The position numbers were made by a program. 64,000 bases of DNA, from NCBI RefSeq assembly GCF_045037415.1, contig NZ_CP173438.1; one strand, 5' to 3'. Shown one piece after another: positions 33,101 through 36,100 of the stretch. This DNA comes from Escherichia coli (lineage in GTDB: Bacteria; Pseudomonadota; Gammaproteobacteria; Enterobacterales; Enterobacteriaceae). The first letter of the stretch is position 1, and each line of letters opens with the position of its first letter.

Positions 33101-36100
33101 AATTTCTTCTACCAATATCTTACCTGGTTCGTTTTCTTTCTCATTAGAAACTAATGCATCAGGGATGTTTTTTTTGTTTGTTGAAAACGTAATGTCATCT
33201 GCATAGCGGCTGTAACTACAACCATATGTGACTGCTAGCTTTGATAATCTGAAATCTAAAATCCTACAAATAAGATTAGTTATTACTGGAGAACAAGGGC
33301 TTCCTTGCGGAAGCGATCCATCCAGGCAGGCTATCTGCGCAATAATGGTTGCAACATTTGGATGTAACTTGAAATTTTGGTTTGCAATAAAATATCCTCG
33401 CACGCGACCAAAATTAAAGGATGGGAAGAAATTCTCAATATCAATATTAAATACAATATTTTTATCTCGATGCCTCTCAGCATTTGTAATTATAGTTTTA
33501 TTCTTCTCAAAACCATGTGATACATTTTGTTTAATATTATTTTTTGCCCAAATTTCTTCCTGGCATATATATAGAAGTTCAGAAAGTCGTTGTTGAATAT
33601 CTTTCAGTTTTTCATCAGGAGCAAAGATCTCCCGCTCTCCTCCAGACTTTTTCTTTATAGTAAATTTTTTGTATTGATTTTCTGGCCTTATTCTATACAA
33701 AACATTAGTCAGAAATGTAACTTTAATCTGAAGCAAATCAGCCAGTTCAAATTTGTTACAACAAGCCTGCAGCCTTGCCAGATAGGTAGGTTTAAACATA
33801 ACAGTAAATTCCATTATTGATTATGTTAATGCACATGCAGGTACTCTTACGCATTTAACGGTGACGCCAAGATGACTTGACGGCAGTCAGAGGGCGAATA
33901 CTCCCGACCTTGTTAACACTGATTGCGATACCACAACCAACAAATCTACCTGCATGTGCCGTATTAAATTAGCATAGTCATCATATAACTCAAGCCCCCA
34001 ATCAATTTTTTTCAAAATCCTCAATAAGTTATAGATGGTTTGCGTTCTGTTCATTTCTGGCATCAGAGTGATGATTAGGCAAGTTAGCTGGGAAAATTTA
34101 TCCGGAGTATATACAAAGAAAGTAGTCAGCCCAGTTGAATCATCTAAACAAGACCAATTAACTAATTTATTTAAATGAAAAATAATGCTTTTGAGCTAAC
34201 CAATTATGCACTTAAGCTAAATTTACCGTTTTTGGGGCTAGCCCAACATCGAGGGCGCATAAGCTTTAGCCCACTTTTACTTTCCTGTTTTCTTTAGTAA
34301 CAGAAGGTTAACTATCAAATATTTTTGTTGGGCTATGTGGGCTAACAGTTTTCATATTTACGTGTTTTTTTATTCTTCTCCGGTTTCCGTTTCAGATACC
34401 GGAGTAAACAACAGCGTATAAGCCCAGGGACGTGCATGCTTGAGGTGTCTCAGCCGTGGCATACGTATCAGCCATCCCTCCACGCTGGTGGACTTTTTGA
34501 GCATTCCAGCCTCATGAAGGATTCTGCCGGCAGTATCCTTGCTGAGAGGAGTAGAACCTACGCCCTTCGCATTACGAATGCGAGCTAACTCCAAAATGAG
34601 TACGAACATGAGTACAAAAAAAATATATCATTAAATGTAGTATAAATTTCAATCAGATACAGCAAAAATTACAATTCAACGTCTAATTCCGCTAATACTA
34701 CTCTGGCGGTTAATAACGAGCCATTATGTGAGTTGCACGTAATGGCTTTTTTACGCCTGCTACGCGTCTTCTTTCAATTCTGAGTTACCAAAACTCATAA
34801 TCAGACTCCTGACAATATTAACAATGCAGCTTTTATGTGATAACAATCACAGTGCATTAACCGTTCAAGAGTTTGTCATGAAAAAAACATTTACCTTCAG
34901 CCTGTTAGCAATTGTCTTTGCAAGCCTGTTGAGTGCTTGTGTTCCCCACCATCATCACCGCCACAGCGATGGCCCTCGTGGTCCTGCGCCCTCCGGTAAG
35001 CCAATGCCACCTTCAAATGGTGGACCAAATCACGGCAGTCATGGTCGCTATTAATTAGTAATTCATAGCGGGAAAGTACATACTCTCCCGCTATCCACGG
35101 CGCTTAAACTGCCCTGCATCAATGCCATGTTGCTTCATTTTCCGCCACAGCGTAGTGCGGCCGATTCCAAGTAAAGCCGACATTTCCTGAATGCGACCGC
35201 CTGTGACTTGGGCTGCGTTAATAATTGCCTCTTTTTCAACTTCCGCAAATGACAGACTGGTGGAAAGGCGGGTGGCGCTGACATCATCTGTCGCCTGCTC
35301 GGTAAACAGATGTTCCGGCAAATCACTGACGCGAATGCGCCCATTATCACTACTCAGAGCAAGATTCTCGATGACGCTGTAAAGTTCAAAATCGTTGCCA
35401 GGCCATGCACAGGAAACCAGGCGAGCGAGGGCATCGTCATCAATTTTCAGCCGCGTAGAGAAGCGTTTTTCAAGGCTGCGTAATTTGTTATTCACCAGCG
35501 CCGGAATGCTGCCACGCCGCATACGCAGTGGCGGGATGGTAATTTCAAATGCATGCAGCGCGTAATACAGCTGGCGACTAAAACGATTTTGTTCCACCAG
35601 CATTGCGAGGTCCGCGGTCGTTGTGGCAATCACTTTGACATCAATGGGTATTAAACGCCGCGCATCCAGTCGCGTGATAACACCCTGCTTGATAACCTGA
35701 AGCAAAGCAGACTGTAACTCCACCGCCAGATATTCAATCTTTTCAAGAAACAGCGTGCCGCCGTGCGCCAGTTCCAGCCGACTCAGACGGCCATTTTCAT
35801 TATCCGTGCGATCGCCACCAATAAATTCTTCCGCCAGCGCCGCATCACCATATAACTCACAATTGACGGCGATATAAGGCCCCGCTGCACGCTCGCTTTC
35901 ATTATGAATTGCCTGACTTAGCAGTGCCTTGCCCACGCCCTCTTCTCCACAAAGCAGGACAGGAAAGCTACTGCGCGCCGCCTGGCGACCAAAATGAATC
36001 AAGCGGCGGGTTTGCGGATCGTCCTGTGGCATATGAGCGAAGGTATGGCTGACTTTTCCTAATTGACTGGTCATTAACTGCCGCATCTGTTCCACAGGAT

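What the first reader, a model, noticed from the sequence alone, without database searches (positions are those of the whole stretch)
34824..35054. Small His-rich lipoprotein gene just outside the right island boundary
A short ORF with a lipobox followed by HHHHRH and a Pro/Gly-rich tail lies between the island junction and dhaR; possible metal-binding periplasmic peptide of unknown function.
Basis: seen in the sequence. Interest (0 to 1): 0.2.

Follow-up and report, generated by a model that had tools for sequence, protein, structure and literature searches.

The report
Small His-rich orphan lipoprotein gene
This is a real, selectively maintained gene for a 58-residue histidine-rich lipoprotein of unknown function, found only in Escherichia and missing from strain K-12; it is a modest curiosity, not a new kind of system.

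Summary
The ORF is real, but its likely start is ATG 34878 (58 aa; RefSeq WP_001311636.1, "hypothetical protein"), not 34824. It has a canonical lipoprotein signal (MKK, hydrophobic core, L-S-A-C). The 38-residue mature part is 58% Pro/His/Gly, starts C-V-P-HHHHRH and is predicted to be unstructured.

The gene is a separate unit between the ychF terminator and a hairpin shared with convergent dhaR. It lies 192 nt beyond the right junction of a 28-kb integrase-borne defence island.

It occurs in 1296 of 5426 complete E. coli genomes, including Nissle 1917, with or without the island. It is also in E. marmotae, E. whittamii and another cryptic lineage, always between ychF and dhaR. K-12-type strains carry ycgV there, and E. 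albertii has only a 160-bp spacer.

No relative was found outside Escherichia, and no family, phage or structure match.

Substitutions fall on third codon positions (14 of 58 against 6 of 116). dN/dS is 0.02-0.17 in this frame and above 1 in most comparisons for the other frames that could be read, so it codes for protein.

Function is inferred only: probably an outer-membrane-anchored, disordered peptide whose ZinT-like HxHHxH cluster binds metal. Expression was not tested. Low to moderate interest.

The parts
34675..34686 (.). Right copy of the 12-bp direct repeat TTCAACGTCTAA. It duplicates the ychF 3' end and marks the right junction of the 28-kb island (6360-34686).
   Evidence: local alignment with 6348-6359. 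One search shows that homology with the island-free strain W224N resumes here.
34718..34754 (+). Ancestral ychF intrinsic terminator: a 13-bp stem, a 5-nt loop and a U6 run. It insulates the small gene from upstream transcription.
   Evidence: dG -23.7 kcal/mol, z -4.5, 0 of 200 shuffles fold as well. Conserved in all Escherichia loci and in E. albertii (91% identity).
34818..34847 (+). The only sigma-70-like promoter match in the spacer: TTAACA, 18 nt, AACAAT. Both hexamers are invariant across species. Candidate promoter, unverified.
   Evidence: 9 of 12 matches; one site found against 1.8 expected, so weak on its own. (invariance).
34836..34851 (.). Perfect CRP-core palindrome TGTGA-N6-TCACA. 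It is invariant in all orthologous loci and centred 34.5 nt upstream of the ATG. Its role is unknown, and it is too close for class I or class II activation of this gene.
   Evidence: the only match in 64 kb; 0.05 expected by chance. (invariance). (no significant RNA fold).
34867..34871 (+). Shine-Dalgarno-like AAGAG, 6 nt before ATG 34878.
   Evidence: Read directly from the sequence; invariant.
34878..35054 (+). Coding sequence of the 58-aa prolipoprotein plus stop: MKKTFTFSLLAIVFASLLSACVPHHHHRHSDGPRGPAPSGKPMPPSNGGPNHGSHGRY.
   Evidence: PGAP WP_001311636.1. (purifying selection in this frame).
34878..34940 (+). Signal peptide (residues 1-20) ending in the lipobox L18-S19-A20-C21. Cys21 (34938-34940) is the predicted lipidated N-terminus.
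   Evidence: pattern match. (lipobox invariant in 11 variants). (AlphaFold2 helix at residues 3-20).
34947..34964 (+). Histidine cluster H24-H25-H26-H27-R28-H29, which fits HxHHxH, three residues after the lipid anchor.
   Evidence: (H25, H26 and H29 invariant; H24 and H27 at least 90% conserved). The motif comparison with ZinT is from PMC9175090.
34965..35051 (+). Pro/Gly-rich, predicted disordered tail (S30-Y58). It includes a second His pair (H52, H55) and an invariant C-terminal Tyr.
   Evidence: composition: P8, H7, G7 of 38 residues. (no secondary structure; mean pLDDT 57-67 per 10-residue block)..
35065..35094 (.). Stable hairpin between the two convergent stop codons, overlapping the dhaR stop at 35091-35093. 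Probably a shared bidirectional terminator.
   Evidence: plus strand -16.5 kcal/mol, z -4.7; minus strand -21.1 kcal/mol, z -6.2. Its right half is conserved in E. albertii.

Best explanation
Window 34878-35054 is a genuine single-gene unit encoding a 58-residue prolipoprotein.

Shown here:
- The reading frame is under purifying selection as strong as that on its housekeeping neighbours.
- The N-terminus is a canonical signal peptidase II signal.
- The gene is restricted to E. coli and its cryptic-clade relatives.
- It is the older occupant of the ychF-dhaR spacer.

Inferred from established lipoprotein biology:
- Cys21 is lipidated and the signal peptide is cleaved by LspA.
- Val at +2 (not Asp) means the 38-residue lipopeptide is passed by the Lol system to the inner leaflet of the outer membrane.

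Inferred from composition and motif only:
- The mature chain is an unstructured, polyproline-like tether.
- Its membrane-proximal HHHHRH cluster fits the HxHHxH motif that forms a high-affinity Zn site at the N-terminus of ZinT. Together with the distal HGSHG, it would bind a divalent transition metal (Zn, Ni or Cu) in the periplasm.
- This would buffer the metal or hand it on at the outer-membrane face.
For: Gene reality:
- dN/dS is 0.02-0.17 in nearly all pairwise comparisons (0.44 in one pair with only 5 differences). In comparisons between species dhaR gives 0.04-0.06 and ychF 0.015.
- Variable sites fall 2/4/14 on codon positions 1/2/3, p = 6e-4.
- The ORF is intact in all 17 loci where the start codon was found, including two where gene callers skipped it.
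- PGAP annotates it in all sampled genomes.

Lipoprotein signal.

Separate transcription unit: it is bracketed by two strong hairpins. The 60 nt before the ATG vary at 4 of 60 sites, against 14 of 58 third codon positions.

Disorder: AlphaFold2 gives no secondary structure after residue 20.

His cluster: it is conserved and matches the ZinT HxHHxH pattern. That motif is described as a flexible, high-affinity Zn site with 3-4 His coordination (PMC9175090).

Independence from the island: the identical protein is present in Nissle 1917 without the island.
Against: - No expression, lipidation or metal-binding data exist. I found no paper naming the protein.
- There is no convincing Zur or Fur box. 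The 12-of-15 Zur-core match at 34831-34845 is at chance level.
- The neighbours (ychF, dhaR-dhaKLM, treA) have no metal function.
- About 75% of E. coli genomes lack the gene and one lineage carries a dead copy, so it is dispensable.
- The conserved regulatory palindrome is CRP-like, not metal-related.
- His-rich composition can also serve pH sensing or partner binding.
Confidence: 0.4

Rival explanations
1. Accessory-partner model. The lipopeptide acts like LptM: a short, mostly unstructured outer-membrane lipoprotein that binds and modulates a larger envelope machine or outer-membrane protein. The His and Pro residues would form a binding surface, not a metal site.
For: - Its size, lipid anchor, predicted outer-membrane sorting and lack of fold match the LptM precedent. 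LptM is about 6 kDa, and its N-terminal region and acyl chains insert at the LptD/LptE interface (PMC10567701).
- Conservation is strong along the whole tail, not only at the His residues.
- The C-terminal Tyr is invariant.
Against: - It is not an LptM homologue.
- No partner gene is linked to it, and it is a single-gene unit.
- It is absent from about 75% of E. coli, so any partner must work without it.
Confidence: 0.25
2. pH-switch model. The seven histidines make the tethered peptide a pH-titratable polycation that protects or remodels the outer membrane's inner face in acid. This would be functionally akin to the disordered periplasmic acid-shock protein Asr.
For: - The calculated charge of the mature peptide rises from +3.4 at pH 7 to +9.5 at pH 5.
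- Asr is cited as an intrinsically disordered periplasmic chaperone contributing to outer-membrane integrity (PMC10746267).
- The carriers are gut and urinary-tract lineages (my own knowledge of Nissle 1917 and related B2 strains).
Against: - There is no sequence relation to Asr.
- I recognised no acid-response regulatory site; the conserved site is CRP-like.
- The tight HxHHxH spacing is more typical of metal sites.
Confidence: 0.15
3. Mobile-element relic. The ORF is a left-over phage or island lipoprotein, for example an o-spanin-like or exclusion lipoprotein, stranded beside an integration hot spot and without host function.
For: - It lies 192 nt from an att site used by at least two elements.
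- It is small, proline-rich and lipid-anchored, like Rz1-type o-spanins (my own knowledge).
- It has a weak match to PHROG 542, a family of unknown function (E = 0.0024, 19.5 bits).
Against: - It lies outside the island repeat, and island-free genomes of four Escherichia lineages have it in the same place.
- No relative was found in 50,697 phage genomes or in IMG/VR.
- There is no adjacent i-spanin or lysis gene.
- Strong purifying selection between species argues against a functionless relic.
Confidence: 0.05
4. Not a functional protein gene. The conservation would reflect overlapping regulatory DNA or RNA, such as terminators, a CRP site or an antisense transcript, and the ORF would be incidental.
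For: - It is short and low in complexity.
- It has no homologues outside one genus.
- There are no expression data.
- The flanking non-coding elements are themselves conserved.
Against: - Three-fold codon periodicity of substitutions and dN/dS well below 1 are seen in this frame. The only other frame with a low ratio is an antisense frame that shares the wobble position and appears interrupted by stops.
- The only length changes among these sequences are in-frame: a 6-nt insertion in E. marmotae and E. whittamii.
- No Rfam family matches.
Confidence: 0.05

Closest known systems
LptM (YifL), the small outer-membrane lipoprotein of the LPS translocon (NCBIfam NF047847, Pfam PF13627)
   Same: A roughly 4-6 kDa lipoprotein predicted to go to the outer membrane, without a globular fold, encoded by a small stand-alone gene (PMC10567701).
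   Different: - No homology: 13.9 bits against a cut-off of 27.7, over the signal peptide only, and PF13627 was not reported.
- LptM is conserved across Enterobacteriaceae, whereas this gene is confined to part of Escherichia.
- LptM has no His cluster.
[quoted passage not shown]
   Same: A flexible His cluster immediately after the signal-peptide cleavage site of a periplasmic protein. HHHHRH fits HxHHxH, which is reported as a high-affinity site with 3-4 His coordination (PMC9175090).
   Different: - ZinT is a soluble protein with a lipocalin/calycin-like beta-barrel domain and a second, canonical 3-His site.
- This peptide has 38 residues, is lipid-anchored and has no domain.
- There is no convincing Zur box and no sequence homology.
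SilE/PcoE-type disordered periplasmic metal sponges (comparison from my own knowledge)
   Same: An intrinsically disordered periplasmic polypeptide whose His residues would be the metal ligands.
   Different: - Those proteins are soluble, about 140 residues long, rich in Met as well as His, and encoded in plasmid-borne metal-resistance operons.
- This one is lipid-anchored, has a single Met in its mature part, is chromosomal and stands alone.
- No Pfam match.
Asr, the acid-shock periplasmic disordered protein
   Same: A disordered, basic, His-containing envelope protein whose charge depends on pH.
   Different: Asr is soluble and strongly acid-induced. There is no sequence similarity, and nothing here indicates acid control.
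Rz1-type o-spanins (phage outer-membrane lipoproteins; comparison from my own knowledge)
   Same: About 60-residue precursor, lipobox, very proline-rich mature part, outer-membrane anchor.
   Different: - There is no partner i-spanin gene and no lysis cassette.
- There are no phage relatives.
- Apart from the lipidated Cys21 the mature part has no cysteine, unlike lambda Rz1, which forms an intermolecular disulfide.
- The gene is conserved as a chromosomal gene in several species.

Membership tests
Bacterial lipoproteins (signal peptidase II substrates) | Positively charged n-region followed by a hydrophobic h-region of 7-22 residues | tested here: met
   MKK followed by TFTFSLLAIVFASLL; AlphaFold2 helix at residues 3-20.
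Bacterial lipoproteins (signal peptidase II substrates) | Lipobox [LVI][ASTVI][GAS]C at the end of the signal peptide | tested here: met
   L18-S19-A20-C21, invariant in 11 variants. The pattern occurs 0.03 times per shuffled window.
Bacterial lipoproteins (signal peptidase II substrates) | Actual lipidation of the Cys and globomycin-sensitive cleavage | not testable with these tools
   Needs palmitate labelling, globomycin treatment and a C21A mutant.
Outer-membrane (Lol-sorted) lipoproteins of E. coli | No Asp at position +2 after the lipidated Cys | tested here: met
   The +2 residue is Val and +3 is Pro, both invariant. The sorting rule itself is established knowledge.
LptM (NF047847 / PF13627) | Score above the curated family cut-off over the mature N-terminal motif | tested here: not met
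   13.9 bits against a cut-off of 27.7, covering residues 1-21 only. PF13627 was not reported at E up to 10.
LptM (NF047847 / PF13627) | Conserved throughout Enterobacteriaceae | tested here: not met
   Relatives were found only in Escherichia: 2 of about 100,000 species representatives and no true hit among 1.84 billion representative proteins.
ZinT-like zinc chaperones | HxHHxH motif directly after the signal-peptide cleavage site | tested here: met
   H24-H25-H26-H27-R28-H29; motif definition from PMC9175090. This is a motif-level match only.
ZinT-like zinc chaperones | Calycin-like beta-barrel domain with the canonical 3-His site | tested here: not met
   The mature peptide has 38 residues, no Pfam domain and no predicted structure.
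ZinT-like zinc chaperones | Zur-regulated promoter | tested here: inconclusive
   The best Zur-core match, at 34831-34845, has 3 mismatches. That is at chance level: 3 hits against 1.37 expected.
o-spanins (Rz1-like) | Small proline-rich outer-membrane lipoprotein | tested here: met
   8 Pro in 38 mature residues, with a lipobox.
o-spanins (Rz1-like) | Encoded within or next to an i-spanin gene in a phage lysis cassette | tested here: not met
   The neighbours are ychF and dhaR in island-free genomes. No phage relatives were found.
His-operon-type leader peptide (attenuator) | Short ORF with a run of His codons | tested here: met
   CAC CAT CAT CAC CGC CAC at 34947-34964.
His-operon-type leader peptide (attenuator) | Followed by a terminator/antiterminator and a regulated operon on the same strand | tested here: not met
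   The next gene, dhaR, is convergent. The ORF carries a lipoprotein signal. No Rfam leader family matched at E up to 1.

The most novel reading that the evidence does not exclude
The gene is a young, taxonomically restricted invention. It would have arisen in the ychF-dhaR spacer after the split from E. albertii, possibly de novo from non-coding DNA. It would encode a lipid-anchored, ZinT-motif metal- or pH-responsive peptide. It is now a presence/absence polymorphism in E. coli: kept in lineages such as that of Nissle 1917 and erased in K-12-type strains by an element that used the same att site. A conserved CRP site would link it to carbon status.
Probability: 0.15. Interest if true: 0.45.

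Novelty: new member of a known kind. Interest (0 to 1): 0.27.

Why it matters
If the inference holds, part of E. coli, including the probiotic strain Nissle 1917, has a small envelope lipopeptide that K-12 lacks. All K-12-based small-protein surveys would therefore have missed it.

Its strong conservation, despite having no relatives outside the genus, makes it a clean small case for two questions. One is how orphan envelope proteins arise and are kept. The other is whether a bare His cluster tethered to the outer membrane contributes to metal or acid handling in the gut or urinary tract.

The practical impact is modest: one uncharacterised accessory gene, dispensable in most strains.

Tried and rejected
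1. **Origin from the ycgV autotransporter gene.**
   - Strain HH45's spacer aligns both to K-12 ycgV fragments and to the small gene.
   - Direct comparison of the window locus with K-12 ycgV is not significant. Sensitive blastn gave a best E of 0.22. Local alignments against 300-1000 shuffles gave p of about 0.04-0.7.
   - HH45 is a single genome among 5426. I rejected this as an origin and kept it as an unexplained patchwork.
2. **LptM membership.** Rejected.
3. **Any Pfam, NCBIfam, PHROG or PDB relative.**
   - Matches were only to the signal peptide or were weak.
   - The PDB hits are mostly to the N- or C-terminal ends of chains and look like recombinant His-tags (my reading of the matched positions).
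4. **Distant homologues.** None were found in 5.8 billion proteins or in a full HMMER scan of 1.84 billion representatives. The two extra hits there, P0027 and P0028, are repeat artefacts.
5. **Phage or viral origin.** None found.
6. **Known RNA family in the spacer.** None found.
7. **His leader peptide.** Rejected because of gene orientation.
8. **Zur or Fur control.** No convincing box.
9. **Literature.** There is no paper on the accession, and nothing relevant was found for the locus or for expression in carrier strains.
10. **Citrobacter dhaR context.** It is not syntenic with ychF, so it says nothing about ancestry.
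Full report
**1. What is in the sequence**

Its product contains MKKTFTFSLLAIVFASLLSAC followed by VPHHHHRHSDGPRGPAPSGKPMPPSNGGPNHGSHGRY.

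The likely start is the internal ATG at 34878, which gives 58 residues. Three observations point to it:
- PGAP annotates exactly this protein (WP_001311636.1, "hypothetical protein") in every RefSeq genome I opened.
- An AAGAG Shine-Dalgarno-like motif lies 6 nt upstream (read).
- In E. marmotae the codon at 34824 is ATA, and the nearby shifted ATG hits a stop after four codons.

A signal peptide also needs its MKK n-region at the N-terminus.

**2. Anatomy of the locus**

- The gene lies just outside an island. A 12-bp direct repeat, TTCAACGTCTAA, occurs at the end of ychF (6348-6359) and again at 34675-34686.
- The repeats bracket about 28 kb that starts with an integrase ORF (6574..7749).
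- In the near-identical strain SK1144 this interval is annotated with a retron Ec67-family reverse transcriptase/endonuclease, an ABC-three-component system, RadC, DUF2339/DUF3999 proteins and IS elements.
- Directly after the right repeat comes the ancestral ychF terminator: a hairpin at 34718-34748 plus U6, with dG -23.7 kcal/mol and z -4.5.
- After the small gene's stop codon, a second strong hairpin (35065-35094; z -4.7 and -6.2 on the two strands) overlaps the stop codon of convergent dhaR.
- The gene is therefore a unit of about 300 nt that needs its own promoter in 34755-34870.
- The only promoter-like hit there is TTAACA-18-AACAAT at 34818-34847. It is weak on its own, because one site was found against 1.8 expected by chance.
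- The only perfect CRP-core palindrome (TGTGA-N6-TCACA) in the 64-kb window overlaps that site at 34836-34851; 0.05 are expected by chance.
- Both the promoter-like hexamers and the palindrome are invariant across species.
- The palindrome's centre is 34.5 nt from the ATG. That is too close for class I or class II activation of this gene. Repression, or some other role, is possible but untested.
- Neither a convincing Zur box nor a Fur box is present.

**3. Is it a real gene?**

Yes, on evolutionary evidence.

- Distribution and integrity:
  - The 421-nt segment is present in 1296 of 5426 complete E. coli genomes, and 1295 of them hold at least 80% of it.
  - The ORF is intact in all 17 loci I extracted where the start codon was found, including two where gene callers had skipped it.
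- Substitution pattern:
  - Across eight sequences from E. coli, E. marmotae, E. whittamii and Escherichia sp. E1V33, variable sites fall 2/4/14 on codon positions 1/2/3 (Fisher p = 6e-4).
  - Nei-Gojobori dN/dS is 0.02-0.17 in almost all comparisons in the annotated frame, and 0.44 in one pair with only 5 differences.
  - It is above 1 in most comparisons for the other frames that could be read.
  - The exception is the antisense frame that shares the wobble position. Its low site count suggests it is interrupted by stops, and it is not the 43-codon antisense ORF.
- Comparison with neighbours: in comparisons between species, dhaR gives 0.04-0.06 and ychF 0.015. The small gene is as constrained as its housekeeping neighbours.
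- Length changes: the only one among these sequences is an in-frame Pro-Gly insertion in E. marmotae and E. whittamii.
- Chance expectation: the lipobox pattern occurs 0.03 times per shuffled 64-kb sequence, against 2 hits in the window.

**4. Where it occurs**

It is.

| Lineage | What lies between ychF and dhaR |
|---|---|
| E. coli Nissle 1917 (no island) | the identical protein |
| E. coli W224N (no island) | an allele of about 94% DNA identity |
| E. marmotae | the gene |
| E. whittamii, Escherichia sp. E1V33 | the gene |
| A lineage whose DhaR is 94% identical | the gene |
| K-12-type E. coli | the ycgV autotransporter gene; no trace of the small gene |
| E. albertii | only 160 bp |

- The first ~90 nt after ychF in K-12 belong to an 111-nt alignment, 86% identical, that runs from the ychF 3' end into the left end of the window's island. 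The ycgV interval therefore looks like the remains of an older element at the same att site, and the small gene was lost with it.
- The E. albertii spacer keeps the ychF terminator and the right half of the dhaR-side hairpin, but not the gene.
- In Citrobacter, dhaR is not next to ychF.

No relative was found anywhere else:
- 12 hits, all within this Escherichia-only cluster, among 5.8 billion clustered proteins.
- No true hit in a full HMMER scan of 1.84 billion representatives. The two extra hits are tandem-repeat artefacts.
- 2 of about 100,000 species representatives.
- Nothing in 50,697 phage genomes or in IMG/VR.

The gene is an Escherichia-restricted orphan. It was either gained after the split from E. 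albertii or lost there.

**5. The protein**

- The signal is canonical: MKK, a 15-residue hydrophobic core, then L-S-A-C, invariant in 11 variants.
- The residue after Cys21 is Val, not Asp. By the established E. coli sorting rule this predicts outer-membrane delivery.
- The 38-residue mature part is 58% Pro, His or Gly (P8, H7, G7). Its pI is about 10, and its calculated charge rises from +3.4 at pH 7 to +9.5 at pH 5.
- AlphaFold2 finds only the signal helix and no structure afterwards, with mean pLDDT of 57-67 per 10-residue block.
- No Pfam or NCBIfam family reaches threshold, and the LptM model touches only the signal peptide (13.9 against 27.7 bits).
- PHROG 542, of unknown function, matches weakly (E = 0.0024).
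- The PDB matches are mostly to the N- or C-terminal ends of chains and look like recombinant His-tags (my reading of the matched positions).

**6. How it most likely works**

- Shown: a selected coding frame, a lipoprotein signal, a conserved His cluster and a separate transcription unit.
- Inferred from established biology: lipidation, cleavage by LspA and Lol-dependent outer-membrane anchoring.
- Inferred from motif only: HHHHRH at residues 24-29 fits HxHHxH. That is the flexible N-terminal motif of ZinT, reported as a high-affinity zinc site with 3-4 His ligands (PMC9175090). With the distal HGSHG, the tethered peptide could capture Zn, Ni or Cu at the inner face of the outer membrane.

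I give this about 0.4. The rivals are:
- an LptM-like partner-binding role (0.25; precedent in PMC10567701);
- an Asr-like pH-switch role (0.15; PMC10746267);
- a mobile-element relic (0.05);
- a non-functional ORF (0.05).

Three things count against any strong claim. There are no expression data. About three quarters of E. coli genomes lack the gene. One strain, HH45, has a dead copy without a start codon and with frameshifts.

**7. Novelty and verdict**

The sequence is already in RefSeq as a hypothetical protein, and I found no literature on it. It is a new, uncharacterised member of a well-known kind, the small bacterial lipoproteins.

Two features add interest: it has no relatives outside Escherichia, and it is absent from K-12, so K-12 small-protein surveys cannot have seen it. 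Interest is low to moderate at 0.27.

The most novel reading not excluded is a young, possibly de novo, lipid-anchored metal- or pH-responsive peptide kept as a presence/absence polymorphism. I give that about 0.15.

Noticed in passing
window 6348-34686: A 28-kb integrase-borne island sits at the 3' end of ychF, bounded by the 12-bp direct repeat TTCAACGTCTAA. It holds an integrase ORF (6574..7749), a retron Ec67-family RT/endonuclease (32042..33814, minus strand), an ABC-three-component system (about 28268..31807, minus strand), RadC and DUF2339/DUF3999 genes. It looks like a defence island.
   Followed up: partly
window 6340-6450 versus K-12 (L004, just downstream of ychF): An 111-nt alignment, 86% identical, runs from the ychF 3' end into the island's left end and into the sequence after ychF in K-12, including a shared hairpin AAAATCCACGCAATTGCGTGGATTTT. 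The K-12 ycgV interval therefore looks like the decayed remains of an earlier element at the same att site.
   Followed up: partly
L002 5733-6275 (E. coli HH45, NZ_CP116411.1): This spacer is unique among 5426 genomes. It alternates ycgV-derived pieces (99% and 90% identical to K-12) with pieces of a diverged, dead copy of the small gene (about 84% identical). The junctions show microhomology, and there is a G-rich 50-nt stretch of unknown origin. Simple deletions do not explain it.
   Followed up: partly
window 34687-35090 versus L003 (E. coli W224N): The small gene differs at dS 0.23 between the window and W224N, while the flanking ychF and dhaR differ at dS 0.012 and 0.028. Two deeply diverged haplotypes of the 400-bp spacer sit in near-identical backgrounds, and the W224N allele is closer to cryptic-clade alleles. 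This suggests local recombination at this hot spot.
   Followed up: partly
window 27053-27388 (+): A second ORF with a canonical lipoprotein signal (MKRAILLVLIAAGLLAGC..., 111 aa) lies inside the island.
   Followed up: no
window 10729-10815 (+) and 63149-63227 (-): Two Rfam matches at gathering threshold: a group II intron catalytic domain inside the island (64.9 bits) and the sRNA C0299 (111.9 bits).
   Followed up: no
L023 5001-6584 (E. albertii contig): The dhaR gene called in this E. albertii contig gives 527 residues, against 639 in E. coli. It may be truncated or called from a different start.
   Followed up: no
window 42685-47157 (+): Downstream of treA, carrier strains have an iron-type ABC transporter, a SAM-dependent methyltransferase and ModD, as annotated in SK1144 and W224N. 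From my own knowledge K-12 lacks this cluster. It co-occurs with the small gene in the genomes I opened, but I did not test whether that is linkage or function.
   Followed up: no
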